A DNA stretch of 64,000 nucleotides from Bacillota bacterium. GTDB taxonomy: Bacteria; Bacillota; Clostridia; Christensenellales; SZUA-584. The position numbers and the translations under genes are program-made. Location of the stretch: positions 1-64,000 of the forward strand of contig JAEYKW010000046.1 in assembly GCA_023408075.1 (NCBI GenBank), read 5' to 3'. Positions 7,673 through 28,145 of the stretch are shown in pieces. Within the stretch, counting starts at the first letter, position 1. Each line of letters opens with the position of its first letter. The notes beneath the pieces are model-generated. The model saw nothing but the letters and a program-made list of their open reading frames with translations, was not told where the DNA came from and did not search any database.

Positions 7673-8680
7673 ATGAAGACATTTATTCCGTCACGGGTCT
7701 ATGCGGAAAAAGGCTGCGACAGCTACCGGCTCGGCAGAGAGCTCATTAAAAAATACACCGATATGGGTATCGATATTATCAAGATCGATAATCACAACAA
7801 AATCCCCGAGCTTCGGGAACGGCCCAATGCAGATTTCTCGAAGATGAAAAATTATCTCGTGCTCGGTATCAGAAAATCGCTGACGCATCAGAAGAACAAC
7901 AAAACCTCGGATTTTCTTGTGCCGTATACGTCATCGGGCTGTGCCGCGATGTGCCTTTACTGTTACCTCGTCTGCACCTATTACACCAGCGCTTACTTGC
8001 GCGTATTTGTGAACCGCGAGGAGATGATGGAAAAATTAAAGCGCGCGGCCGATAAATATCCGGGCAGCGTATTTGAAATCGGCAGCAATTCAGACCTTGT
8101 TCTCGAGAACACGGTGAGCGGCAATCTCGAATGGACAATCAAACAGTTTTCTGAGGTGGATCACGCGCGCCTCACGCTGCCCACGAAGTTCAGCATGGTG
8201 GACACGCTGCTTGATTTGCCGCATGGACACAACGTCACGATCCGCATGAGTCTCAACCCGCAGGAGATCATATCGCATGTGGAATTCGGCACTTCCAGGC
8301 TGCTGGACCGTATAGATGCGCTCAACAAGCTCTATACCGCCGGTTACGATACGGGCATACTCGTCGCGCCGATCATCATGGCGGAGGGGTACAGGGAGAT
8401 GTACGAAAAGCTTTTTGCTGTGATGGCGGAAAAGCTGCTGCCCGGCATTAAAAGCTCGGTGGCGCTGGAACTGATCTATATGACGTATGGCATGGTCACA
8501 AAATCGATCAACGAAGAAGCGTTCCCGGGCGCGTGGAGCCTTTATAACAAAGAATCGATGGCGTTCTGCGGACGCAGCCGCTATGGCTATAAGCGCGATA
8601 CGAAGGAGGAGGCATCCGCGTTTTTCCGCGACCGCATCGCGCATTATCTGCCCGAGGCGAGCATCGCGTATATCGTATAA
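7673..8680 (+). CDS. splB: Spore photoproduct lyase (radical SAM)
   Basis: Colinear similarity to B. subtilis SplB, including the CxxxCxxC radical-SAM motif (CAAMCLYC), LVLGIRKSL and the SIAYIV C-terminus. A possible forespore-type -10 CATACTA lies at 7644-7650. Confidence 0.9.
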   Translation: MKTFIPSRVYAEKGCDSYRLGRELIKKYTDMGIDIIKIDNHNKIPELRERPNADFSKMKNYLVLGIRKSLTHQKNNKTSDFLVPYTSSGCAAMCLYCYLVCTYYTSAYLRVFVNREEMMEKLKRAADKYPGSVFEIGSNSDLVLENTVSGNLEWTIKQFSEVDHARLTLPTKFSMVDTLLDLPHGHNVTIRMSLNPQEIISHVEFGTSRLLDRIDALNKLYTAGYDTGILVAPIIMAEGYREMYEKLFAVMAEKLLPGIKSSVALELIYMTYGMVTKSINEEAFPGAWSLYNKESMAFCGRSRYGYKRDTKEEASAFFRDRIAHYLPEASIAYIV

Positions 8681-9116
8681 GTAAAAAAGCCGAAGATTAT
8701 GCGGCTTATACTGCTGGAAAAGCAACAAAACGTCATTCCGATGGAGCGTAAGCGGAAGAGGAATCCCATGATTAAGAGCATTAGTATTCGGGATGCTCTC
8801 CGCCTGGCAATCGTGTCACTCCGCTCTTCATTAACGCGGTGGAATGCATGATATAGTATGGTTCTCATAAAGTTGAGTTGCAATTGTATCCACCTTCAAA
8901 CTGAGAAGATTAAGTATTTAACTAAGATGCAAGCTGTCACGGCAGTTGGGCGGCGGGAGGAAAAGCACTGCCACTTCCTCTGCGGAGGCGTGGATTGAAG
9001 AGAGGATAAGTTTCCTCCGGGGGGCGCCGGCTCTTGACAGACGCCCTCATAGGTATGACTTGTGAGAGATGATAAAGCTTGTTGATATTATGCGAGCTTA
9101 AGGCTATATGCGCAGA

Positions 9117-17403: not shown

Positions 17404-18378
17404 TTAGACGGTCGGGGTGCCGCAATCCGGGCAGAATTTGCTTGCGACCATCTTACGGCATTTGGGACAGAATTGGTCCCCGGTTGCTGCAGCTTGTGCC
17501 GCCGCTGGTTGGCTCGGCGCCGTACCCATTGCGCCCGCCATCTGCTGCGCCATCTGCGCGCCCATCACCATTTGCGCGCCCATCGACGCAAAGCTGTTGT
17601 CGTTGGCGCCGGGTGTCGTGAAACTGTCCGCCATTTGAACGGTTGCATACTTGCCGACGTTGTTCACGAAGGCTTGGCCAGCCACACGCTCCGCCATTTG
17701 CTGTACTTCCGGCGGGTAGTTGATACTGAGGATATTCACGTCGTCCACACCCAAACCGAATTCTTGCAATTCCTTGTCGAGCTCAGCGCAAATGACTTTC
17801 CCCAATTTGCGGCTGTTTTGCTGCAAGCCGATGAGCGCGTTGACGTTGATGTTCTGCTCTCCGCCCAAAATAGCTTCCGCAACCACAGGATTCAACTCGC
17901 CCATGATGCGTTCTGAAATGTCCGAAAGCGAATAGGTATCCTTGACGCCTGCGACTTTATCGATGAACGTCTGATAATCGCGGAACTGCACAATCAGGTT
18001 GCCGTGGCAGCCAATGGGAATGCCCGAGGGAACCTCGGGAGTGGGAATCATGATACGTTGCCGGGTGCCCCATTGCAGCAAGAGCTGCTTGCTGTTGATG
18101 AAGTAGACCTCCGCACGCATTCCGGTGTCGCCGCGCAGGCTAAACCAGCCTTTGAGCGTGGAGAGGAAGGGAACGATATCGGTTGCAACATCGTAGCTGC
18201 CCGCGTTTTCAAAAACGCCTTCGATCACGCCGTTCGCGAAAAAAATCGCTTTTTGTCCGGCTCGGATAACGAGCTTTGCGCCTTTTTTTATCTCCTTGGC
18301 AGGCCACTTGTAAAACAATATATCATCCCGAAACTCTTCCCATTCGATCGTATCCTTGCCTTGTCCAAACCATGCCAT
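17404..18378 (-). CDS. SPFH/Band-7-like domain protein with C-terminal zinc ribbon (B. subtilis YdjI-like)
   Basis: N-terminus MAWFGQGKDTIEWEEFRDDILFYKWPAKEIKKGAKLVIRAGQKAIFF is typical of the SPFH-like 'Band_7_1' family. A Gln/Ala/Met-rich linker is followed by CPKC...CPDC. Confidence 0.55.
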   Translation of the reverse strand: MAWFGQGKDTIEWEEFRDDILFYKWPAKEIKKGAKLVIRAGQKAIFFANGVIEGVFENAGSYDVATDIVPFLSTLKGWFSLRGDTGMRAEVYFINSKQLLLQWGTRQRIMIPTPEVPSGIPIGCHGNLIVQFRDYQTFIDKVAGVKDTYSLSDISERIMGELNPVVAEAILGGEQNINVNALIGLQQNSRKLGKVICAELDKELQEFGLGVDDVNILSINYPPEVQQMAERVAGQAFVNNVGKYATVQMADSFTTPGANDNSFASMGAQMVMGAQMAQQMAGAMGTAPSQPAAAQAAATGDQFCPKCRKMVASKFCPDCGTPTV

Positions 18379-18401
18379 ATACTTTTCTCTCCCATTATTT
18401 T

Positions 18402-19499
18402 TTATTGGTATTCAAGAAAAAGATAAACAACCCCCACGATAGCCGCAACCGCCAAAACAGTTGCAATCGCAATCTTGGCCGCGCTGTACGGCCGCTGCCC
18501 GTCTACCTTTCCCGTTTCGCCGTTGACGAAGTAACGATAGGTTTTCCCATTGTAAAAGAATGTGGATGCCCAGACCGGCAGCAACATGTGTTTGTACGTC
18601 ACGTCCGTGTATTTCGCCTCAATGGAGGTTACGTCGGCTTCGTCGTACTGCTGCAGAATTTGATTTTTGGCCATCGAGCTAAGGACACTTTCCATGACGC
18701 TTTTTGCCCTTTCAAAAGCAGCATCTGCCTTAACTTTATACAACTCGGCATAATAACCGGACAAATATGCGGCTGAATAAGGCACCGTGTTCTCTACCGT
18801 ATTAAAGGGCAGAATTTTCGCGATATCCTTTTCGCGATCAGAGGCGCAGATTTGAACGTCGTTAAATGTGTTGTCTACCACACCCGATACGTGGTGCCAA
18901 TCAACCGTAGTATGTCTGTTTCCGTCCTTATCAGTCTCGGTTCGGGTGTCACCGCCTCGTCCTTGATAAAACGCGACAGCAGAAGCGTCATACGTCCAAA
19001 AAGGAAGGTACATACCGATGAGTGCGCTGCCCAAGCTAAACTTTTTTTTGAAATCATTGGGGGCGAACCAGATCGATTTTACCCATGCCTTAAATTTTTG
19101 AATGGCGTTATTTTTATCGATCTTGAAGGGGATAATCCCTTCGGGCGGAATCCCTGCCGCTTGCTTCACGGTAGCAATCTGCACAGACCCGCACATCGGG
19201 CAGGTTGTCGCGACCGCCATATCGTCGAATGTGATTTCATAGCCGCAGTTCTGGCATTGCGCCACCGCAAGGCCCTCAAATGCAACGCTTTGCTGCTCAC
19301 GCTGCGCATACTGGCTGAAATCATATTCCTTCACCCCGTTTGAAAGGGTTTCCATCGTGGCCGGCGCTTTACATGCCTCACAGCGGAAACTTTGGCTCTC
19401 GATGTCGTACTTAATTAAACCGCCGCAATTTGGGCAGAGAAATGTTTGCGTGTTCACGTTTACCTTTTTCACATCGGTACTTGTTTCTGCCTGAATCAT
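18402..19499 (-). CDS. Multi-zinc-ribbon protein with C-terminal TM anchor (YdjG-like)
   Basis: Three CxxC...CxxC ribbons (CPNCGG..CEAC, CQNCGY..CPMCG) and a C-terminal hydrophobic helix. Sits immediately upstream of, and co-oriented with, the SPFH gene. Confidence 0.45.
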   Translation of the reverse strand: MIQAETSTDVKKVNVNTQTFLCPNCGGLIKYDIESQSFRCEACKAPATMETLSNGVKEYDFSQYAQREQQSVAFEGLAVAQCQNCGYEITFDDMAVATTCPMCGSVQIATVKQAAGIPPEGIIPFKIDKNNAIQKFKAWVKSIWFAPNDFKKKFSLGSALIGMYLPFWTYDASAVAFYQGRGGDTRTETDKDGNRHTTVDWHHVSGVVDNTFNDVQICASDREKDIAKILPFNTVENTVPYSAAYLSGYYAELYKVKADAAFERAKSVMESVLSSMAKNQILQQYDEADVTSIEAKYTDVTYKHMLLPVWASTFFYNGKTYRYFVNGETGKVDGQRPYSAAKIAIATVLAVAAIVGVVYLFLEYQ

Positions 19500-19874: not shown

Positions 19875-20567
19875 ATGCGATTTCTTAAGACTGTTGTTTT
19901 GATAGCGCTGATCACCATCCTCTTGACAGGCTGTATTTTCGAGACATATTACAGTCGTGAATACGGCCATTTATCAAAATACGTATTGCGGGATGGCCAA
20001 ATCACAATCGATAAAAACACGTATATGTTATGCAATTGGAATTACCCGAAATATCCGTCGTCCAATGCTGGAGATGAAGTTTTCTCTCGGATAGACGATC
20101 AGGATCAGGAGATGAGATATAATGGCATACTATATGAGCTTCATCAATTTTCCGATCGGTCATTTTTAATATATGTATATGAGGCGGATGCAGGTAGCGG
20201 CTGGGGTGGCTGCCGCGTCTTGCGTCGTAGCGATATAGACATGCCAGAGTTAACATACGAAAATGTCGATTCCCTTGAATCAGAAAACTTTGCTTGGAAA
20301 AGTCAGGATGAAGCTTTCATATATGAGTTGTTCGGTGCAATGAGTGATGAAGCGAATAATATAGAAAATGATGATATTATTCGTGAAAGTGAATATTACG
20401 ACACAATCACATACCGCAATGATGACTGGCCTGATTTTTGTTTTCAGATTACCATAAGGTATGTTAAAGATGAGTATTTTGTATGGAGCGTGTTTTTGGG
20501 TGAAGGCAGCGCGTGGATAACCATGCCGCACAATTTGATTGAAAAGATTAAAGTGAAAAGCGAATAA
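19875..20567 (+). CDS. Hypothetical lipoprotein
   Basis: Lipobox LLTGC, low-GC region, no recognisable domain. Confidence 0.45.
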   Translation: MRFLKTVVLIALITILLTGCIFETYYSREYGHLSKYVLRDGQITIDKNTYMLCNWNYPKYPSSNAGDEVFSRIDDQDQEMRYNGILYELHQFSDRSFLIYVYEADAGSGWGGCRVLRRSDIDMPELTYENVDSLESENFAWKSQDEAFIYELFGAMSDEANNIENDDIIRESEYYDTITYRNDDWPDFCFQITIRYVKDEYFVWSVFLGEGSAWITMPHNLIEKIKVKSE

Positions 20568-20651
20568 ATAGAGTTGCTCCGCTTCGTTCCGAAAGTGATA
20601 TATTTATGTAAATAAGTCTAAACTATAACTTTTTTTTTGACGGAGGAAAGC

Positions 20652-20795
20652 ATGAAACAAATACAATTTTCAATTGAAATAAATGCCTCTAAAGAAAAGG
20701 TCTGGGCAACTCTTTGGGACGATAAGTCATTTCGTGACTGGGCTAATATTATTGATGAAGGCACATATATGAAGGGCGTGTTGTGCGTGAAATGA
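20652..20795 (+). pseudogene. Truncated SRPBCC (AHSA1/Bet v1-like) domain gene fragment (47 codons)
   Basis: MKQIQFSIEINASKEKVWATLWDDKSFRDWANII... is the typical N-terminus of about 140-aa SRPBCC proteins but stops after 47 aa. GGAGGAAAG RBS. Confidence 0.3.
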
Positions 20796-20924
20796 TATCT
20801 TGATAATCTGGGTGTCAAGGATGCTGGGACTAATGTTTATCGAATCTTATTGCGAAGAATATTAGATTTCAGTGTCCTTGACACTTTCGGTTTGGCATAC
20901 TGGGTGACTGCATGGTTTATGAAA

Positions 20925-21644
20925 TTATTCCTGTTTATACGTGAGATCATATTTCGCATTGCTTTTTTCTCGCACTAAAAAGCTATCATAAGCCTTCCGG
21001 AGCTTTTTGTACTGGGATATGCACGCGACTACCGATACTATGGCTAATCCGATTATGACAACAGAAGTTATGATAATTGCTACCACATTTGAGTGTGTAA
21101 CTGCAATATACAGAAGAGTGCCCATTACCAATATTGCGACGGCTAAAACAGACACGACCTTCTTTGCATAACTGAAATATTGATTGCCGAAATCACAAGG
21201 ATTTGCAATAAAATCAACGTCTGAAACCACATTTGGTTCAGTCGTAAAGACGGGTGACGACCATTCATTCGTTCTTCTATTATACCTTGAATTAGTAAAG
21301 GTCAGGCACACATCTGTGTCCTGCTGCATATCGACAAGCAATTTCGCTCTTAAACGATACGCCTTAATGTTATTATACCAGTCCGAGTCGGTATTCAATA
21401 AAAATACATTGAATACGCCTTGGATAACAATAGTAACGACATGGATAAATATCCATAAAGGCGTTCTGTTGCTCGTTGTGAGTTCCTGTTCGATTATAAT
21501 TTCGTATTGTTTTTTTTCATCGATGTGACAGGAAGCAACCGGAATGGTATCATCGGCGGCACAGCAAAGCGTCTTTGTTTCATTATTTATCCGTATTGAC
21601 AGACAATCATCCGAAGCGATTTTCCCATATATATTAAGTAGCAT
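20925..21644 (-). CDS. Hypothetical membrane protein (2-3 TM helices)
   Basis: ORF only; AT-rich island; hydrophobic segments. No domain recognised. Confidence 0.4.
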   Translation of the reverse strand: MLLNIYGKIASDDCLSIRINNETKTLCCAADDTIPVASCHIDEKKQYEIIIEQELTTSNRTPLWIFIHVVTIVIQGVFNVFLLNTDSDWYNNIKAYRLRAKLLVDMQQDTDVCLTFTNSRYNRRTNEWSSPVFTTEPNVVSDVDFIANPCDFGNQYFSYAKKVVSVLAVAILVMGTLLYIAVTHSNVVAIIITSVVIIGLAIVSVVACISQYKKLRKAYDSFLVREKSNAKYDLTYKQE

Positions 21645-22318
21645 GAATCACCACTTACCCTATTCATATTTGGGTTAGTATTCGTCAATCTCCACTAATT
21701 CATGTATTGATTATTTGAAGGTTTATGTAAACAAGAGAAATTACTTGATGTGCAATGAAATTCCAAGATATTTTCCAATAATATCGGAATAAACCATCCT
21801 CGGGATTAGAATAGTTTTCCGGAGATTCGGATAACTGAGTGTAAACTGAGGAGGAAATCCAAAAAAGAGGGAGGAGAAGAGAATGATTATCAATCAGCTT
21901 GTTGAATTAGAAAATTAAAAATTGAAGGCATTACCTCAGCCAGAAGCGGCTTGAGTAACCCCCGGTCCTTATACTACAAACACAAAAAATCATATTAAAT
22001 CTTTGAAACAGGCGTCTGAGTGGTGTTCTACCATCTGGACACTTTTCGTTCTAAAGATAAGATAATGGAGCTGTGAGTTGAACCCGCATGAAGCAAAAAT
22101 TTTGTCGCTAAACGGAGGAGGATAAAATCATGAGTAAACGGCATTTCATCCGGTGATCCGCAGGCTGTGGAAAAGGTTAATCAAGACACGATATACTGAT
22201 TCACCAACATTTAAGTTGATAAAAATGGGAACTGCGCTTAAAATAGAATTCGAACAGGTGACACAATTAATAATTCTTAAAAATCTTCTTTGTCCTTTTT
22301 AAAATGGGGTAATTTCTT

Positions 22319-23107
22319 ATGAAACTTATACAATTTGCAGAAAAATACGGTCCGTATGCTCTGATTGCCGGAGGCTCCGACGGATTGGGCTACGCTTTTG
22401 CGGCGGGGCTTGCGCGGCGGGGATTGAATCTGGTGCTGATGGCGCGTCAGGAAGACCGGCTCAAAGCGGCGGCGGCCCGGCTAAAAGACACATATCAAAT
22501 CGATGTGATTTCCATCGCTGCGGATATGGCGGATTACGAAAATGTAAAACAATTGATTAGCGCTCTTGAGGTTTCCATTGGCTTGCTTGTTTACAATGCG
22601 GCTTTCGCGCCCATTGGTTTATTCGAAAATACGAGCGAAGAGCATTTGGCGCTTGCCACGGCGGTCAATGTCAAAGCGCCGCTGCTGCTCACAAAGCTTT
22701 TATCCGCGTCGATGATAGAGCAAAAACGCGGCGGCATTGTGCTGATGTCATCTCTTGCCGGGGGGCAGGGCAGCCCGAACATTGCAGCCTATGCAGCCAC
22801 AAAATCATTTAACGCCATTTTAGCCGAAGGCCTTTGGAAAGAATTAAGGCCGCACGGAATTGATGTGATTGTCTGCTGTGCCGGTGCCATTCTCACGCCC
22901 GGCTATCAGCAAGCTGAAAAAGCCAAACAGGCGCCCGGAACGCTGGCAACCCATGAAGTCGCTGAACAAGCCTTGAATGCTTTGGGGAAAGGCCCGATTA
23001 TCATACCCGGGGCCATCAATAAAGTCGGTCGGTTTGTACTGACCAGGCTTTTAAGCCGAAAAGCCGCTATTGCTACGATGTCGAAAAACACCGGAGGTTT
23101 GTCATGA
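22319..23107 (+). CDS. Short-chain dehydrogenase/reductase, 17beta-HSD12/3-ketoacyl-reductase-like subfamily
   Basis: Cofactor motif IAGGSDGLGYAFA (GxxDGIG type) and catalytic YAATK; 262 aa. Confidence 0.8.
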   Translation: MKLIQFAEKYGPYALIAGGSDGLGYAFAAGLARRGLNLVLMARQEDRLKAAAARLKDTYQIDVISIAADMADYENVKQLISALEVSIGLLVYNAAFAPIGLFENTSEEHLALATAVNVKAPLLLTKLLSASMIEQKRGGIVLMSSLAGGQGSPNIAAYAATKSFNAILAEGLWKELRPHGIDVIVCCAGAILTPGYQQAEKAKQAPGTLATHEVAEQALNALGKGPIIIPGAINKVGRFVLTRLLSRKAAIATMSKNTGGLS

Positions 23108-24180
23108 CGTTGTTTTCAGGTTTGATCACCCCGCTCATCGCATACGCAATGATTACTCTTTTACATATCATCATTCCGGTGAAAAGAATGAAGGGATATG
23201 TCAAAAATGAAATCACAGGCGAAGTCATGAATTACAGAACCAACGGAAAATTTGTTCTTTTGGCGAGTATTCTCATTTGGTTTCTGCTTGGTTTTTTTGA
23301 TATCGTGCCATACTTATGGTTGTATGAAACCCGATGGCTGGGCCTTATCGGCGCGGTTGTGATCGGATTGGTCTATTCTTTTTACATTGTTCTCAAACAC
23401 CCGTCTACGGGCAAATCTTTCTTTGCTGATTTTTGGTATGGCAGGGTTAAAGACGCGCAGATTAAAGACGGCTTCATTGATGCAAAAATGTGGTTTTACT
23501 TAATCGGCGCGGTGATGCTTCAATTGAACGTGCTTTCTTTTGCGGCATATCATATCATGAATGTCCCGCATATTAACTATGGTTTTCTTCTCGGCTGCGC
23601 CATGCTCACATGGTTTTGCTTTGATTATCTGATATTTGAAAAGATCCATCTTTGGACATACGATTTTATCGCGGAGCGCGTCGGATTCAAATTGGGGTTT
23701 GGCTGTCTTGCGTTCTACCCATATTTCTATTCTGTCTCACTCTGGTTTACTGCGCATCTTCCGAATCCCGGTCATCCCGTATGGCTGACAATACTCTTTG
23801 GCGCGCTTTTCCTCTGCGGCTGGGTGCTGACGCGCGGCGCAAATATGCAAAAGTACTTCTTTAAAATTGCGCCCGACAAGAAATTTCTTTGGATAAAGCC
23901 TGAAGTGCTCAGCGACGGTCACTTAAGCCTGCTGGCCAATGGCTACTGGGGCGCAAGCCGCCACATCAACTATCTTGGCGAGATTATTCAGGCGATCGCC
24001 GTGGCTCTGGCCTCCGGCTACGCCGGGATATGGATGGTGTGGCTGTATCCGGCTTACTATATCGGTCTTATGATTTCGCGCCAGGCCGATGACGACAAGG
24101 TTTGCAGGGCGAAATACGGAGAGCTTTGGGATGAATACACCAGAAAAGTGAAATACAAGATTATTCCATTTATATATTGA
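23104..24180 (+). CDS. ERG4/ERG24-family (sterol reductase / DUF1295-like) integral membrane reductase
   Basis: 358 aa with about 8 TM helices. C-terminal signature NGYWGASRHINYLGEII...LMISRQADDDKVCRAKYGELWDEYTRKV matches the sterol-reductase family signature and NADPH-binding tail. Overlaps the SDR stop by 4 nt. Confidence 0.7.
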   Translation: MTLFSGLITPLIAYAMITLLHIIIPVKRMKGYVKNEITGEVMNYRTNGKFVLLASILIWFLLGFFDIVPYLWLYETRWLGLIGAVVIGLVYSFYIVLKHPSTGKSFFADFWYGRVKDAQIKDGFIDAKMWFYLIGAVMLQLNVLSFAAYHIMNVPHINYGFLLGCAMLTWFCFDYLIFEKIHLWTYDFIAERVGFKLGFGCLAFYPYFYSVSLWFTAHLPNPGHPVWLTILFGALFLCGWVLTRGANMQKYFFKIAPDKKFLWIKPEVLSDGHLSLLANGYWGASRHINYLGEIIQAIAVALASGYAGIWMVWLYPAYYIGLMISRQADDDKVCRAKYGELWDEYTRKVKYKIIPFIY

Positions 24181-24267: not shown

Positions 24268-24510
24268 ATGGACGAAGAAAAGAAAAAAGAAGAGTATAAG
24301 GTGAGCGGCGAAGACCTGATGGCAAAGATCAAAGCCATCATTCGGGAAGGCAACGCGAGAAAGGTGACGATTAAGGATAAGGATGATAAGGAGATACTCA
24401 GCTTTCCGCTGACCGTCGGCGTGGTGGGTATCGCATTAGCTCCTGTTTTTGCAGCCATTGCAACGATCACGGCGTTGGTTACAGAATGTACAATTGTCGT
24501 TGAACGGTAA
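24268..24510 (+). CDS. DUF4342-like small protein
   Basis: 80 aa, strong RBS AAGGAGG. The KVTIKDKDDKEILSFPLTVGVVGI pattern is typical of DUF4342. Confidence 0.5.
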   Translation: MDEEKKKEEYKVSGEDLMAKIKAIIREGNARKVTIKDKDDKEILSFPLTVGVVGIALAPVFAAIATITALVTECTIVVER

Positions 24511-24804: not shown

Positions 24805-25635
24805 TCATTGCCATGAAATTTGCAAGGGTTCTCGGTCTACCAGTCTCTTGAAAGAATAGACTGGATACCCGGCAAGCAGCGCGCCTGTAACGATTTTGTT
24901 TTTGGAGAGCTTTAATAGCTTAAGCAGTGGCTCGTACTCAGTTGCGGCGCAATACTCGAACAAGCCGGACCAGCAAGTGCCAAGCCCCAACGCTGGAGCA
25001 TAGAGCTGGGCATATGCGAGTGCGAAATGTGTGTTGTCCCGGCCGAGAGCGAAACGGTCCTTATCCGCTGTGGCGATGACTAGGCAGGGCGCATCCCTCA
25101 GAATAGTGTCCTTGCCATTTTTGAGGTAACGGCGGATCGTATTGGAGGTGTTTTTTGACCATGGAGATTTCCCTAAAGCTCCGTGCTTTAAATCTTCCTC
25201 TGCCCAATCCGCTATCACCGCTGCAATCTCTTTTAAAGTAGCCGGATCATCAATAACATGGTAAGAGACTCCTTGTGAATTGCAGGCCGTTGGCGCGAAG
25301 CGGGCAATATCGAGGAGTTCACGGATGATCTCGCGCGGCACATGCTTCTTTTTAAAAGAACGGACGGACCGCCGTGATCGAAGAAAACGAGCCGCCGTAT
25401 CGGCATCCGGTACCGATACGTTTTCAAGCAAGACCTGTTTTTCAAGCGGAGCCAGCTTGTGATCTAATGAGCCGTTTGGACAAACGGCTACGCAATGCCC
25501 GCAGACAATGCAGAGATTATTGACAACCTCCGGACCTTGTTCTCCCAGACCAAGAGTACCCCTGCAGACATTTACGCAAAGTCCGCACTTTGTGCATTTA
25601 TCCTGATTCACCTGAATTAAGTTCTCTGATGTCAT
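24805..25635 (-). CDS. Nitroreductase-family protein with N-terminal 2x[4Fe-4S] ferredoxin domain
   Basis: CTKCGLCVNVC and CIVCGHCVAVCP motifs, then a nitroreductase fold (RRSVRSF, FAPTACNSQ). Confidence 0.8.
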   Translation of the reverse strand: MTSENLIQVNQDKCTKCGLCVNVCRGTLGLGEQGPEVVNNLCIVCGHCVAVCPNGSLDHKLAPLEKQVLLENVSVPDADTAARFLRSRRSVRSFKKKHVPREIIRELLDIARFAPTACNSQGVSYHVIDDPATLKEIAAVIADWAEEDLKHGALGKSPWSKNTSNTIRRYLKNGKDTILRDAPCLVIATADKDRFALGRDNTHFALAYAQLYAPALGLGTCWSGLFEYCAATEYEPLLKLLKLSKNKIVTGALLAGYPVYSFKRLVDREPLQISWQ

Positions 25636-25638
25636 TTT

Positions 25639-26346
25639 TCACTCACCGGCCAACACAATATTCAGGGTTTTGATTTTTCCGTTTTTAAGATTAAAAATAA
25701 AATTGAGCGGAATCGGGCTGCCTTCGAAATTACCCGAAAGCGTGGCGGTGACAACGCTATTGCCGTTTTTTTCCACATAGTCGGTGATTTCGGTCATGAC
25801 CTTTGCGTCCCGGTTCGCCTCAAGGATGTGCCGGCTGATGGCCTCCGGGCCATGATATTCGTTTCCTTCGTCATACAATAGGGCATCTTCTGTAAAGCAA
25901 CCAGCAAGCAGTACACCGTCGTAGACATCAGATGCATGGTAATAGGCGGCGATTGGCGCTGGCAGCGGTACAGCCTTGCTGTTGGAGGAAAGAACATTGC
26001 GCAGGCGTGTGACTTTATCCTGCTCTATCGTAAAGTGAAAATCAAGATAAAGAGGGTCGGGTAGATCACTCTTGTCGTAGTCTCCGTCTGATTTTGCAGT
26101 GACGACAATCTCTGTGGCATCCCGAACGGCATTTGTGATTTCCAGCCTCAAATGGACGCCGAAATAGTCGCGGTCGCTCCATTCTTTGATGGCGGTTTTC
26201 CCGTGATATTCTTTCCCCGCGTCTATAACGACGGCGGTATCGGCAAAAATTGAGAGGAAGGTAACGGGATCGTCCGTATTTATTGCCTGAAAATGTGCCT
26301 CAATCGGTTTAAGTAATGGAAATTTAATGTTTATCATTATATTCAT
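25639..26346 (-). CDS. Tandem NTF2-like/SnoaL-like domain protein
   Basis: Two repeats of about 110 aa with the SnoaL-like pattern. Lies in the operon between the nitroreductase and SDR genes. Confidence 0.45.
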   Translation of the reverse strand: MNIMINIKFPLLKPIEAHFQAINTDDPVTFLSIFADTAVVIDAGKEYHGKTAIKEWSDRDYFGVHLRLEITNAVRDATEIVVTAKSDGDYDKSDLPDPLYLDFHFTIEQDKVTRLRNVLSSNSKAVPLPAPIAAYYHASDVYDGVLLAGCFTEDALLYDEGNEYHGPEAISRHILEANRDAKVMTEITDYVEKNGNSVVTATLSGNFEGSPIPLNFIFNLKNGKIKTLNIVLAGE

Positions 26347-26352
26347 TCTCCT

Positions 26353-27159
26353 TTAAATTGTGCGGACAATGCCGCCGTCAATTGTATGCTCGGCTCCGAC
26401 AATGTAAGAAGCGCGATCGGACACCAGAAAAGCGATGAGTTCCGCTATTTCTTCCGGACGTGCGGTGCGGCCAATCGGGATACCGCCCAGAGAATCCATC
26501 AAAGCCTGCCGGGCATCACTATAGCCGCATCCCCGCTCCTGTGACATCCGCTCGATAAGTCTCTCAGCGGCTTTGGTTTCCGTGAATCCGGGCGCAACGC
26601 TGTTCACGCGGATACCCTTGGGTGCGAGCTCCGTTGCCAGCGCTTTGCTGTAATTTGTAAGCGCAGCCTTGGCTGCTGAATATGCCATGGTATTTTCTCC
26701 CGGGAATCGGCGTTGAATCGAGGTAACATGAACAATCACGCCACGGCCTTGCTCGAGCATCGAAGGCAGTAGACCTCGATCCAGACGGACAGCGGCGAAT
26801 AAATTGGTCTCAAATGTCCGCTGCCAGTCGGCGTCGGTTTGTTTCAGTACGCCACCTGTTGGGGTAGAAGAGCCTCCCACGTTGTTGACGAGAATATCTA
26901 CGCCGCCAAAGCGTTTTAGCAGATACTCCACAACTTTTGTAGTGCCCTCAGGTGTGCTGATATCGGCTTGGATAAATAAATCCGAATTGTTTATTTCGCC
27001 CGGCGCGTGCCGTGCTGTCGTGATGACTGTTGCTCCGGAATGTGCAAGCCGCTTGACCGTCGCCTCGCCTATTCCGCCCCCAGTGCCGCCGGTTACAAGC
27101 ACACGCTGACCTTCCAGTTCCTTGGGATTGATCATGATATGGTTGAAATCTTCCATGAA
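26353..27159 (-). CDS. SDR-family oxidoreductase
   Basis: VLVTGGTGGIGEA, NNVG and YSAAK motifs. Start chosen at MEDFNH after an AAGGAGG RBS. Confidence 0.8.
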   Translation of the reverse strand, partial: FMEDFNHIMINPKELEGQRVLVTGGTGGGIGEATVKRLAHSGATVITTARHAPGEINNSDLFIQADISTPEGTTKVVEYLLKRFGGVDILVNNVGGSSTPTGGVLKQTDADWQRTFETNLFAAVRLDRGLLPSMLEQGRGVIVHVTSIQRRFPGENTMAYSAAKAALTNYSKALATELAPKGIRVNSVAPGFTETKAAERLIERMSQERGCGYSDARQALMDSLGGIPIGRTARPEEIAELIAFLVSDRASYIVGAEHTIDGGIVRTI

Positions 27160-27230
27160 TAGAACCTCCTTTTTCGTATTAGGTTGTTTGCATGTTCCAA
27201 TCATATCAATCATAACCTGACAACACCGGG

Positions 27231-28145
27231 TCAAGTTCTATTTTTATATTTGTTTACCATGTCATTTAATTCGTGCCGGAGCGCGTCGCGTATTTTCTGA
27301 GGGGATAACACCTCTGCATCAGCGCCGAACGAGAGGAGATAGCGGATCAGCCATTTGCTGTCTGGCAAAGAGGCAGTGACGGTGAAAGAACCGTCCTGAT
27401 GTTTAAAAATGCTGTTTTCCTCAAATTCATCGTATACTCGGTATGCACCTTCGGCGCGAATCTTCAGGCATAAATCGACCCGGTTCTGCGTTTCTTGTGC
27501 CTGTCCGCTTCCCGGTAATTCTGACGATTCTCTTTCTGAGAAAGACTCCGATGTCATCAGGATATCCGACATTCGTATGATTTTGAAGATTCTAAATGTA
27601 TTTCTGGCCAAACAGAACGCTTTCAGGTACCAGGCGTTTACCTTGAAGACGAGCTTAACTGGTTCAACTCTCCGGATGCTTTTTTCACCGGATGAGCTAA
27701 AATAATTGAACTCAATAATCCGGCGGCTTAAAATGGCGTCTTTTAAAATGGTAAAATGGCCCATCCTGCTTTCGTCGCTGCCCCAGGGGCTGAAATCCAC
27801 CTCAAGCCAACCGGTTTTGTTTTTATTGAACAAACTGCTCAATTTGGCAAGCACTTGATCCATCTGAGGAGCTTTAGTGACCGACAGGCTTTGCAATGCG
27901 TATAGGATTTCGTTTTGTTCTCTTTCCGAAAGGATGGATTTATCAAGCACGTAATCGTCCAGCAGAGAGATGCCTCCGCCCTTACCTTGGGTTGCATAAA
28001 TCGGCACGCCTGCCGAAGACAGGGTTTCGATATCTCGATAAATGGTTCTTTCAGATACTTCAAAACGCGCTGCCAGCTCTTTGGCGGTTGTGGTTTTTTT
28101 ACGAAGCAAGATATAGATTGTTTCAAACAGCCTGTTAATTTGCAT
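27231..28145 (-). CDS. WYL-domain transcriptional regulator (HTH_11 + WYL)
   Basis: AKELAARFEVSERTIYRDIETLSSAGVPI plus a WYL domain. First gene of the minus-strand operon. Confidence 0.8.
   Translation of the reverse strand: MQINRLFETIYILLRKKTTTAKELAARFEVSERTIYRDIETLSSAGVPIYATQGKGGGISLLDDYVLDKSILSEREQNEILYALQSLSVTKAPQMDQVLAKLSSLFNKNKTGWLEVDFSPWGSDESRMGHFTILKDAILSRRIIEFNYFSSSGEKSIRRVEPVKLVFKVNAWYLKAFCLARNTFRIFKIIRMSDILMTSESFSERESSELPGSGQAQETQNRVDLCLKIRAEGAYRVYDEFEENSIFKHQDGSFTVTASLPDSKWLIRYLLSFGADAEVLSPQKIRDALRHELNDMVNKYKNRT

What the first reader, a model, noticed from the sequence alone, without database searches (positions are those of the whole stretch)
22319..24180. Eukaryote-like lipid/sterol-modifying gene pair (17beta-HSD12-type SDR + ERG4/ERG24-type sterol reductase homologue) in an AT-rich island
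The SDR has the GxxDGIG cofactor motif typical of the 3-ketoacyl/3-ketosteroid reductase subgroup. The overlapping downstream gene encodes a polytopic membrane protein with the ERG4/ERG24 / 7-dehydrocholesterol-reductase C-terminal signature (GASRHINYLGE). Both lie in a low-GC block (19.5-22.3 kb) with hypothetical genes and a truncated gene fragment, consistent with horizontal acquisition. In a gut or anaerobic Firmicute such a pair is a candidate for double-bond and 3-oxo reduction of sterols, steroids or other polycyclic or isoprenoid lipids. The pathway assignment is speculative.
Basis: partly seen in the sequence, partly recalled or inferred. Interest (0 to 1): 0.65.

Follow-up and report, generated by a model that had tools for sequence, protein, structure and literature searches.

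The report
Paired bacterial sterol-reductase-like lipid reductases
Two overlapping genes encode a soluble ketoreductase and a membrane enzyme of the sterol-reductase family; they travel together as a self-contained unit through many bacteria that make no sterols, they belong to an unstudied branch of that family, and their substrate is unknown.

Summary
The gene pair is real and lies exactly where reported: an SDR at 22319-23107 and an ERG4/ERG24 membrane reductase at 23104-24180, overlapping by 4 bp. The membrane protein is a true ERG4/ERG24 member (Pfam E=3e-39; best solved relative and best fold match is the MaSR1 sterol reductase, 4QUV), and its NADPH-pocket residues are conserved. It is not an ICMT or PEMT. 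It is also not a canonical C14 reductase, because the predicted catalytic Tyr is Phe, the partner Asp is Glu, and the Asp thought to contact the sterol 3-OH is Cys. These changes are shared with an uncharacterised clade from protists and other bacteria. The SDR is a generic classical, probably NADP(H)-dependent, enzyme and is not specifically 17beta-HSD12-type. The pair is an autonomous module. The SDR abuts the reductase in about 75 of 76 informative genomes from several phyla (wetland, soil, lake, termite gut, digester), the two proteins co-diverge (r=0.82), the unit has its own conserved promoter, and no other neighbour is conserved. Its GC matches each host, so it does not sit in the AT-rich block, which lies upstream. 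A 46-48% identical pair in Gammaproteobacteria sits next to a KshA-like Rieske oxygenase, an SRPBCC protein and a sulfotransferase, which hints at a steroid-like substrate. The function is untested.

The parts
22216..22244 (+). Sigma-70-type promoter of the cassette (TTGATA, 17 nt, TAAAAT)
   Evidence: Consensus scan, 10 of 12 matches. Both hexamers and the spacer are conserved in about 17 low-GC relatives from different genera.
22245..22318 (+). Leader of about 70 nt, conserved in sequence, ending in the ribosome-binding region
   Evidence: DNA similarity to relatives begins about 90-130 bp upstream of the start codon. There is no Rfam match and no consensus secondary structure.
22319..23107 (+). 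Classical short-chain dehydrogenase/reductase, 262 aa, partner of the membrane reductase
   Evidence: PF00106 E=8e-39. No NCBIfam equivalog cutoff reached. G18xxxG22xG24, R43, N117, S144, Y158 and K162 are invariant or nearly so in 69 orthologues, and the C-terminal tail 225-262 is as conserved as the core.
22370..22390 (+). Cofactor-binding glycine motif GGSDGLG
   Evidence: Located by script. The three Gly are invariant; the Asp is kept in 51% of orthologues.
23104..23107 (+). ATGA overlap: stop codon of the SDR overlaps the start codon of the reductase
   Evidence: The same 4-bp overlap is found in 64 of 69 loci.
23104..24180 (+). Polytopic membrane NADPH-dependent C=C reductase of the ERG4/ERG24 family, new subfamily, 358 aa
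   Evidence: PF01222 E=3e-39, profile positions 78-432 of 432. 4QUV E=1e-31. AF2 model pLDDT 71; Foldseek match to 4QUV with TM 0.75.
23614..23628 (+). Rewired substrate-side positions F171 (canonical catalytic Tyr) and Y175 (invariant Tyr specific to the subfamily)
   Evidence: Multiple alignment with MaSR1 and four clades. Catalytic assignment from PMC12489058.
23950..23982 (+). GASRHINYLGE: NADPH-pocket motif containing N289 (MaSR1 N359) and E293 (in place of the catalytic-pair Asp363)
24079..24081 (+). R326, equivalent to MaSR1 R395 / LBR R583 in the NADPH pocket
24268..24510 (+). Small DUF4342 gene downstream; it accompanies the pair only in the closest relatives
   Evidence: PF14242 E=2e-25. 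Found in 7 of about 80 loci, and DNA similarity extends through it in L004-L006, L009, L010, L012 and L030. Probably not part of the core module.

Best explanation
The two genes form a self-contained, translationally coupled operon with its own promoter, and they act in tandem on one membrane-dissolved lipid. The membrane protein takes NADPH from the cytoplasm and saturates a carbon-carbon double bond of the substrate. The SDR, probably NADP(H)-dependent and docked through its conserved C-terminal tail, interconverts a neighbouring hydroxyl and keto group. It would either finish the job (enone to saturated ketone to saturated alcohol) or both activate and finish it (allylic or homoallylic alcohol to enone to saturated ketone to alcohol). 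The most likely substrate is an exogenous sterol, steroid or other polycyclic isoprenoid taken up from eukaryotic biomass, giving a stanol-like product. Because nothing downstream is linked to the pair, the benefit would come from the modification itself, either remodelling or detoxifying a scavenged membrane-active lipid, and not from catabolism. Shown here: family membership, a conserved cofactor site, obligatory pairing, autonomy of the unit and its distribution. Inferred: the order of the steps, the cofactor preference of the SDR, the substrate class and the physiological role.
For: Family and fold: PF01222 E=3e-39; MaSR1 4QUV E=1e-31 and TM 0.75. The NADPH-pocket residues N289, R326, K250, R286, H287, Y290, D330, K337 and Y338 are conserved.

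Coupling: the SDR abuts the reductase in every informative locus of 80 except one. The 4-bp overlap is present in 64 of 69 loci, and the distance matrices of the two proteins correlate at r=0.82. The pairing persists in relatives at 48-68% identity.

Autonomy: no other gene family is found in more than 7 of about 80 loci, and no Pfam family in more than 4 of 145 neighbours. The unit has its own conserved promoter and leader.

Steroid-type hint: in a Gammaproteobacteria lineage the orthologous pair (reductase 46%, SDR 48% identical) lies in one cluster with a Rieske oxygenase whose best solved relatives are 3-ketosteroid 9alpha-hydroxylases (E=2e-24), an SRPBCC lipid-binding protein, two more SDRs and a sulfotransferase. 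Parts of this cluster recur in L094, L095, L097 and L100.

SDR: the catalytic tetrad and R43 after strand beta-2 are invariant. A 7beta-hydroxysteroid dehydrogenase model is among the top NCBIfam matches, though below its cutoff.

Precedent for the logic of an SDR plus a membrane reductase: DHRSX with SRD5A3 in dolichol synthesis (PMC11250103).
Against: No substrate has been tested, and none of the host lineages is known to handle sterols. The substrate-side residues differ from every characterised sterol reductase (Y241 to F, D363 to E, D271 to C), so homology does not carry substrate identity over. The steroid-type neighbours occur only in a distant subclade, and the KshA-like Rieske gene in only one lineage. 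The core family shows no sterol-related neighbour. The very high protein conservation (66-92% across phyla) with fully host-adapted GC would also fit a conserved endogenous substrate. Characterised ERG4/ERG24 enzymes do not need a carbonyl next to the double bond, so the role of the SDR is not explained by precedent within the family.
Confidence: 0.4

Rival explanations
1. The pair saturates the alpha-isoprene unit (or another double bond) of a linear isoprenoid alcohol such as undecaprenol, phytol, farnesol or geranylgeraniol. It would use the three-step detour known from eukaryotic dolichol synthesis: the SDR oxidises the allylic alcohol to the enal, the membrane reductase reduces the C=C, and the same SDR reduces the aldehyde back.
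For: This route needs exactly one SDR and one polytopic NADPH reductase, which matches an autonomous two-gene unit. The precedent is DHRSX with SRD5A3 (PMC11250103). SRD5A is the second-best fold match (prob 0.96). Habitats rich in decaying plant matter supply phytol. In one locus (L001) a Staygreen (Mg-dechelatase family) gene lies immediately upstream. Strong conservation with host-adapted GC fits a universal substrate.
Against: The protein belongs to ERG4/ERG24, not to SRD5A (no PF02544 hit, TM only 0.39). No uppS, cell-wall or chlorophyll gene is linked beyond the single case in L001. The module was found in only 192 of about 185,579 species representatives (a lower bound), which is too patchy for a housekeeping lipid carrier.
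Confidence: 0.15
2. The pair builds or remodels an endogenous non-isoprenoid membrane lipid. It would act as a ketoacyl reductase plus an enoyl reductase on very-long-chain, polyketide-like or sphingoid intermediates, analogous to KAR and TECR in eukaryotic elongation.
For: Its best NCBIfam partial matches are mycolate reductase and 3-ketoacyl-ACP reductases. TECR belongs to the same superfamily of membrane reductases (established knowledge).
Against: No condensing enzyme, dehydratase, acyl carrier, serine palmitoyltransferase or PKS gene is linked in any of about 130 loci. The similarity to KAR is no greater than to any other classical SDR. The membrane protein is far closer to sterol reductases than to anything else.
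Confidence: 0.1
3. It is an ordinary sterol-biosynthesis pair, a C14 reductase (ERG24) plus a 3-ketosteroid reductase (ERG27-like), from a cryptic bacterial sterol pathway.
For: The nearest characterised class is delta14-sterol reductase/LBR/MaSR1.
Against: The predicted catalytic Tyr241 is Phe in all family members, while it is Tyr in all 9 C14SR-clade sequences examined. No oxidosqualene cyclase, CYP51 or SdmAB gene was seen next to the pair in any of about 130 loci. The hosts include strict anaerobes, whereas sterol synthesis requires O2. Canonical reductases score only E of about 1e-29, against 1e-60 to 1e-107 for the uncharacterised clade.
Confidence: 0.03
4. It belongs to the DUF1295-type lipid response to singlet oxygen and photo-oxidative stress, the conserved regulon that contains DUF1295, DUF1365, cfa-synthase-like and SDR genes.
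For: NCBI names many members 'DUF1295 domain-containing protein'. There is a weak PF06966 hit (22 bits, residues 220-313). DUF1295 and DUF1365 genes are induced by singlet oxygen in Chlamydomonas (PMC4067076).
Against: The PF01222 score is six times higher and covers the whole protein. No DUF1365, cfa-synthase or amine-oxidase family appears among the top 25 Pfam families of the 145 scanned neighbours. Many carriers are dark-living anaerobes.
Confidence: 0.03

Closest known systems
Delta14-sterol reductases (MaSR1 of Methylotuvimicrobium alcaliphilum, PDB 4QUV; ERG24; TM7SF2; LBR)
   Same: Same Pfam family and same fold (TM 0.75 over 356 columns). Same NADPH-pocket residues (N359, R395, K319, R356, H357, Y360, D399, K406, Y407 equivalents). 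The shared motifs E-x6-[WY]-D-x3-E and C-x2-K-Y-G are present.
   Different: Only 27-34% identical. It lacks about the first 77 profile positions (roughly nine predicted helices instead of ten). The predicted catalytic Tyr241 is Phe, Asp363 is Glu, Asp271 (proposed 3-OH contact) is Cys, and Arg398 is Asp. An invariant Tyr sits one helical turn later. It has an obligatory SDR partner and is not linked to sterol-synthesis genes.
Uncharacterised ERG4/ERG24 paralogues of protists (Monosiga A9VAA6, Salpingoeca F2U813, chytrids, Aphanomyces, Polarella, Ectocarpus)
   Same: About 40-44% identical over the catalytic half. They share the same diagnostic substitutions (F, E, C, D and the invariant Tyr), so they belong to the same subfamily.
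   Different: They are eukaryotic, usually 380-440 aa with a different N-terminal part, and no SDR was seen next to them. Their function is also unknown.
Steroid 5alpha-reductase with 3beta-HSDH pairs, and DHRSX with SRD5A3 in dolichol synthesis
   Same: The same two-enzyme logic: a polytopic NADPH-dependent C=C reductase working with an SDR that handles the adjacent hydroxyl/keto group (PMC11250103; PMC7591894).
   Different: Those reductases belong to the 7-TM SRD5A family (PF02544), which gives no Pfam hit here and only a remote fold match (TM 0.39).
Gut coprostanol pathway (IsmA, IsmB) and OsrA/OsrB steroid reductases
   Different: IsmB is a soluble Fe-S flavoenzyme, not an ERG4/ERG24 protein. 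Those genes are found in vertebrate-gut lineages, whereas this module is environmental.
Coxiella, Legionella and Protochlamydia eukaryote-like sterol reductases
   Same: ERG4/ERG24 genes in bacteria that make no sterols (PMC2667531, listed; own knowledge for Coxiella CBU1206).
   Different: Those are close copies of canonical eukaryotic delta24 or delta7 reductases in intracellular bacteria, and no SDR partner has been reported for them. I did not compare the sequences directly.

Membership tests
ERG4/ERG24 family (Pfam PF01222) | Full-length match to the family HMM above the gathering score | tested here: met
   135.4 bits against a cutoff of 27, E=3e-39, profile positions 78-432 of 432.
ERG4/ERG24 family (Pfam PF01222) | Polytopic sterol-reductase fold as in MaSR1 (4QUV) | tested here: met
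   AF2 model (pLDDT 71, pTM 0.71). Foldseek best hit is 4QUV, E=3e-11, TM 0.75/0.69, 356 columns. About nine helices are predicted and the first canonical helix appears to be missing.
ERG4/ERG24 family (Pfam PF01222) | Conserved NADPH-pocket residues (MaSR1 N359 and R395 = LBR N547 and R583) | tested here: met
   N289 and R326 are invariant in the family, as are K250, R286, H287, Y290, D330, K337 and Y338.
Delta14-sterol reductase orthologues (ERG24/TM7SF2/LBR/MaSR1) | Predicted catalytic pair Tyr241/Asp363 (MaSR1 numbering) | tested here: not met
   F171 and E293 in the query and in all 8 family members. The Tyr is present in all 9 C14SR-clade sequences and the Asp in 7 of 9.
Delta14-sterol reductase orthologues (ERG24/TM7SF2/LBR/MaSR1) | Genomic or pathway link to sterol synthesis (OSC, CYP51, C4-demethylation genes) | tested here: not met
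   No conserved neighbour of any kind in 80 + 52 loci. Whole genomes were not examined.
DHCR7 / ERG4 (delta7 and delta24(28) reductases) | Orthology to a characterised delta7 or delta24(28) reductase | tested here: inconclusive
   None of the 30 representatives I named among the top 150 hits carried such a name, and the only characterised names were LBR/delta14-SR at E of about 1e-29. No reference DHCR7 or ERG4 sequence was available for direct alignment.
   Only PF01222 and a weak PF06966 hit at E<=0.01. No ICMT structure is among the 50 best fold matches. The 'Ste14' labels in JGI are automatic names.
DUF1295 (PF06966) | Full-length match to PF06966 as the best family | tested here: not met
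   22.4 bits, residues 220-313 only, against 135 bits for PF01222. This reflects the cofactor-binding half shared across the clan.
Steroid 5alpha-reductase family (SRD5A, PF02544) | HMM match or 7-TM SRD5A fold | tested here: not met
   No Pfam hit. Foldseek to 7C83 and 7BW1 gives E of about 0.35 and TM 0.31-0.39.
Classical SDR | Gly-rich cofactor motif and the Asn-Ser-Tyr-Lys catalytic tetrad | tested here: met
   G18xxxG22xG24, N117, S144, Y158 and K162 are invariant or nearly so in 69 orthologues.
17beta-HSD12 / 3-ketoacyl-CoA reductase subgroup | Specific similarity above that to other SDRs; membrane anchor of the KAR type | tested here: inconclusive
No hydrophobic N-terminal anchor. No curated KAR model was available.
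IsmA/IsmB coprostanol pathway | IsmB-type Fe-S flavoenzyme 5beta-reductase | tested here: not met
   The reductase here is an ERG4/ERG24 membrane protein, whereas IsmB is described as an Fe-S cluster flavoenzyme. The SDR was not compared directly with IsmA.

The most novel reading that the evidence does not exclude
The module is the founding bacterial example of a fourth, uncharacterised ERG4/ERG24 subfamily shared with protists. This subfamily has a relocated proton donor, and with its obligatory SDR it hydrogenates environmental sterols or steroid-like toxins to saturated alcohols. If so, it would be a genetic basis for the long-observed microbial stenol-to-stanol conversion in soils, peat, lakes and sediments, and possibly for cholestanol formation by spirochaetes.
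Probability: 0.2. Interest if true: 0.8.

Novelty: new variant of a known kind. Interest (0 to 1): 0.6.

Why it matters
Sterol reductases of the ERG4/ERG24 family are known almost only from sterol synthesis. This work shows a tightly conserved two-gene unit of that family in bacteria that make no sterols, with 2,363 database relatives at E<=0.001 and genome hits in several phyla. Its cofactor site is intact but its substrate side is altered. If the substrate is a sterol or steroid, the unit would give a gene marker for microbial sterol hydrogenation, a process geochemists use as a redox and faecal proxy without knowing the enzymes involved. It would also define a new enzyme activity for steroid biotransformation. 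If the substrate is another lipid, it would extend the chemistry of the family. In either case the hypothesis can be tested directly by expressing two small genes.

Tried and rejected
1. Horizontal-transfer island. Rejected for the pair itself. The cassette GC is 0.481 against 0.492 for the window, and the correlation with host GC over 70 loci is 0.95.

2. Conserved gene neighbourhood. All-against-all clustering of ORFs in 80 loci, plus a Pfam scan of 145 immediate neighbours, gave nothing beyond the pair. The same was true for 52 more distant loci, apart from the sulfotransferase/DUF1214/SRPBCC subclade.

3. SRPBCC link. The truncated SRPBCC fragment upstream in the window resembles the SRPBCC gene in the Gammaproteobacteria cluster in type only. 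No SRPBCC was found by tblastn in the other 80 loci, so I treat it as coincidence.

4. Riboswitch or attenuator in the conserved leader. There is no Rfam hit (best E=9, a nematode snoRNA model) and RNAalifold predicts no pairs.

5. The 2026 bacterial 8,14-sterol reductase. It is an NTF2-family protein, so it is unrelated.

6. DUF1295 and the singlet-oxygen regulon. This is a different family and its typical neighbours are absent.

7. Foldseek against AFDB, to name structural neighbours. The library was unavailable.

8. The MaSR1 structure paper. It is not held, so residue roles were taken from PMC4951196 and PMC12489058.

Full report
**1. What is in the sequence.**
Two + strand ORFs lie exactly at the reported coordinates: 22319-23107 (262 aa) and 23104-24180 (358 aa). 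The stop codon of the first overlaps the start codon of the second in the sequence ATGA.

- The first ORF is a classical short-chain dehydrogenase/reductase (PF00106, E=8e-39).
- The second ORF matches PF01222 (ERG4_ERG24) with 135 bits against a cutoff of 27 (E=3e-39), over profile positions 78-432 of 432. The only other Pfam hit is a weak, partial match to DUF1295.
- The quoted motif GASRHINYLGE is present at residues 283-293, window 23950-23982.

Two details of the observation are wrong. The SDR glycine motif reads GGSDGLG, not GxxDGIG. The pair also does not lie in the low-GC block: its GC is 0.481 against 0.492 for the whole window, while the low-GC stretch at 19.5-22.3 kb (GC 0.378) ends just upstream of the SDR. 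That stretch holds two hypothetical genes and a 52-aa fragment of an SRPBCC (Polyketide_cyc2) gene.

**2. The membrane protein is a real ERG4/ERG24 reductase.**
- Among solved structures, the best sequence match is the bacterial delta14-sterol reductase MaSR1 (4QUV, E=1e-31). A 592-aa delta14-sterol reductase chain (9L5R) comes next.
- An AlphaFold2 model built on 22 family sequences (pLDDT 71, pTM 0.71) matches 4QUV best, with Foldseek E=3e-11, TM 0.75 and 356 aligned columns. Steroid 5alpha-reductases follow far behind (TM 0.31-0.39), and no ICMT structure is in the list.
- The two residues whose mutation in human LBR abolishes NADPH binding are N547 and R583, equivalent to MaSR1 N359 and R395 (PMC4951196). 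They align with N289 and R326 of the query, which are invariant in the family.

**3. It is not an orthologue of the characterised sterol reductases.**
- In a search of 1.84 billion 50%-identity representatives, the closest proteins outside the query's own cluster are a Gammaproteobacteria MAG protein (46% identical) and a Treponema protein (43%).
- After these comes a large clade at about 40% identity, with E=1e-50 to 1e-70.
- Every named member of this clade is an uncharacterised protein. The sources are choanoflagellates, chytrids, an amoebozoan, oomycetes, a dinoflagellate and a brown alga. Their neighbouring genes are of eukaryotic type.
- Sequences named LBR or delta14-sterol reductase appear only at E of about 1e-29.
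- No representative that I looked up was named DHCR7 or ERG4.

A multiple alignment with MaSR1 shows how the clades differ. All clades keep the cofactor-side residues. The cassette family, most of its distant bacterial relatives and the eukaryotic clade share the following substitutions:

| MaSR1 position | Role | C14-reductase clade | Cassette subfamily |
|---|---|---|---|
| Tyr241 | Predicted catalytic proton donor of C14 reductases (PMC12489058) | Tyr in 9 of 9 | Phe (F171) |
| Asp363 | Partner of Tyr241 | Asp in 7 of 9 | Glu (E293) |
| Asp271 | Equivalent by offset to yeast Asp287, which contacts the sterol 3-OH in docking | Asp in 7 of 9 | Cys (C201) |
| Arg398 | No role assigned | Arg in 8 of 9 | Asp or Glu (D329) |
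| Position 245 | One helical turn after Tyr241 | Variable | Invariant Tyr (Y175) |

My reading is that this is a distinct subfamily with the same cofactor chemistry but a different substrate or regiochemistry. The idea that Y175 is a relocated proton donor is an inference.

**4. The SDR.**
- It reaches no NCBIfam equivalog cutoff. The best partial matches are mycolate reductase, 3-ketoacyl-ACP reductases and 7beta-HSDH.
- Its best solved relatives are generic SDRs (6ZDZ, E=8e-24).
That comparison is a lead, not a test.
- Across 69 orthologues the three glycines, R43 (a basic residue after strand beta-2, which in classical SDRs usually signals NADP(H) preference; inference), N117, S144, Y158 and K162 are invariant or nearly so.
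- The Asp of the 'GxxDG' motif is kept in only 51% of orthologues.
- The C-terminal tail (residues 225-262) is as conserved as the catalytic core. Its RLLSRKAAI segment is unchanged even in the 48%-identical Gammaproteobacteria orthologue. This fits a role in docking to the membrane or to the partner protein (inference).

**5. The pair is an obligatory, autonomous module.**
- A scan of one genome per species found 192 relatives, of which 80 loci were kept (66-92% identical).
- The host records are labelled Christensenellales and other Bacillota, Humimicrobiales, Microbacteriaceae, Demequinaceae, Propionibacteriaceae, Treponema, Verrucomicrobiae and Acidobacteria.
- The isolate labels suggest wetland, soil, permafrost, lake, groundwater, termite-gut and digester samples.
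- In every locus with enough upstream sequence the cognate SDR ends at the start of the reductase. The single exception is L078, where an unrelated SDR is encoded divergently.
- The 4-bp overlap is kept in 64 of 69 loci, and the pairwise distance matrices of the two proteins correlate at r=0.82.
- No other gene family recurs in more than 7 of about 80 loci, and no Pfam family in more than 4 of 145 immediate neighbours.
- Low-GC relatives also share the promoter (TTGATA, 17 nt, TAAAAT; window 22216-22244) and a leader of about 70 nt. The leader matches no Rfam family and has no supported structure.
- Cassette GC follows host GC from 0.41 to 0.71 (r=0.95; GC3 0.35-0.97).

The module is therefore long resident in its hosts and under strong purifying selection. 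Its identity levels across phyla still imply old horizontal spread (inference).

**6. Clues to the substrate.**
In a Gammaproteobacteria lineage the orthologous pair (reductase 46%, SDR 48% identical) is embedded in the following gene order:

DUF1214 - sulfotransferase - SDR - SDR - SRPBCC - SDR - reductase - Rieske oxygenase

The best solved relatives of the Rieske protein are 3-ketosteroid 9alpha-hydroxylases (E=2e-24), and it weakly matches the sterol C4-methyl oxidase SdmA. A metagenome scan found 52 further relatives at 48-97% identity. The SDR and reductase adjacency persists in them, and a subclade again carries DUF1214, the sulfotransferase, a second SDR and the SRPBCC gene. This is the only contextual evidence for a steroid-like substrate, and it comes from distant relatives. 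In the core family I found only isolated cases: a Rieske gene in L052, an extra SDR in L021 and a Staygreen gene in L001.

**7. Mechanism proposed.**
An NADPH-dependent membrane C=C reductase and an NADP(H)-dependent hydroxyl/keto oxidoreductase act in tandem on one membrane-dissolved lipid and yield a saturated alcohol. The most likely substrate is an exogenous sterol, steroid or other polycyclic isoprenoid (confidence 0.4).

The two-enzyme logic has precedents in steroid 5alpha-reductase with 3beta-HSDH pairs, and in the DHRSX and SRD5A3 detour of dolichol synthesis (PMC11250103). Nothing downstream is linked to the pair, its distribution is patchy, and it has its own promoter. These features make modification for its own sake (remodelling or detoxifying a scavenged lipid) more likely than catabolism or biosynthesis (inference).

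The rivals are:
- linear isoprenoid alcohols such as polyprenol or phytol (0.15);
- an endogenous non-isoprenoid lipid (0.1);
- canonical sterol synthesis (0.03);
- the DUF1295 singlet-oxygen response (0.03).

The remaining probability is for something not considered here.

**8. Relation to known systems and novelty.**
The known gut coprostanol enzymes belong to other families (IsmA is an SDR, IsmB is an Fe-S flavoenzyme), as does the recently described bacterial 8,14-sterol reductase (NTF2 family). My literature searches found no description of an SDR-coupled ERG4/ERG24 module or of this subfamily. The held library is incomplete, so this is absence of evidence only. I classify the finding as a new variant of a known kind: a known enzyme superfamily and chemistry, a new subfamily with a rewired substrate side, and a new obligatory partnership.

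**9. Verdict.**
| Item | Verdict |
|---|---|
| Observation | Largely correct |
| Family assignment | Correct |
| 'AT-rich island', 'HSD12-type' and 'gut' elements | Not supported |
| Sterol or steroid function | Plausible, weakly supported, untested |
| Interest | 0.6 |

Noticed in passing
window 22186-22318; same region upstream of the SDR in L007-L009, L011, L012, L014-L018, L023-L025, L028, L032, L033: The promoter (TTGATA, a 17-nt spacer that is itself conserved, TAAAAT) and a leader of about 70 nt are conserved at 72-88% DNA identity across genera. The leader contains a short GAATCC-GAAA-GATTTC hairpin-like motif followed by a T-rich tract. This may be a regulatory site or an attenuator.
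   Followed up: partly
window 24805-28145, minus strand: A separate operon-like block: WYL-domain regulator, SDR (293 aa), tandem SnoaL/NTF2-like protein, and a ferredoxin-nitroreductase fusion. It is also present in the identical Logan contig L003 but is not conserved next to the cassette elsewhere. NTF2-fold proteins include steroid isomerases and the new 8,14-sterol reductase, but no link to the cassette was shown.
   Followed up: partly
window 20637-20795: A 52-aa ORF matches only the N-terminal 38 positions of the SRPBCC family Polyketide_cyc2. This is a truncated gene remnant inside the low-GC block. The Gammaproteobacteria cluster carries an intact gene of the same Pfam family directly upstream of its SDR, which is probably coincidence.
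   Followed up: partly
window 19875-21644: This is the lowest-GC stretch of the window (about 0.37-0.38). It holds two ORFs with no Pfam match: a 230-aa protein with a hydrophobic N-terminus and a Cys, possibly a lipoprotein (not tested), and a 239-aa membrane protein. It may be a small insertion that is independent of the cassette.
   Followed up: no
window 17404-19499, minus strand: An SPFH/Band-7 protein with a C-terminal zinc ribbon lies next to a multi-zinc-ribbon membrane protein. The pair looks like an operon of unknown function.
   Followed up: no
L001 4435-4881 (Christensenellaceae MAG, same contig as L016): A Staygreen (PF12638, Mg-dechelatase family) gene lies immediately upstream of the SDR and reductase pair. 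This is the only such case, and it prompted the phytol/chlorophyll idea.
   Followed up: partly
L087 4293-12133 and L093, L094, L095, L097, L100: Gammaproteobacteria and related metagenome contigs carry an extended cluster around the orthologous pair: DUF1214, Sulfotransfer_3, one or two extra SDRs, SRPBCC and, in one lineage, a KshA-like Rieske oxygenase. It may be a pathway for a sulfated, hydroxylated polycyclic lipid.
   Followed up: partly
L078 7127-8059 (minus strand) and 8001-9068: This is the only locus where the cognate SDR is missing. An unrelated SDR (27% identical) is encoded divergently upstream, and the reductase ORF may start about 50 codons earlier.
   Followed up: partly
L091 13165-14621: KwaA and KwaB (Kiwa anti-phage defence) genes lie about 5 kb from a solitary 379-aa ERG4/ERG24 homologue in a 3.9-Mb bacterial contig. 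A PhyH-family dioxygenase lies two genes upstream of the reductase.
   Followed up: no
P0139 (580 aa) and P0194 (785 aa), eukaryotic sister clade: Some chytrid and choanoflagellate members of the subfamily are much longer. P0139 also carries a precomputed PF04930 hit, which suggests fusion proteins.
   Followed up: no
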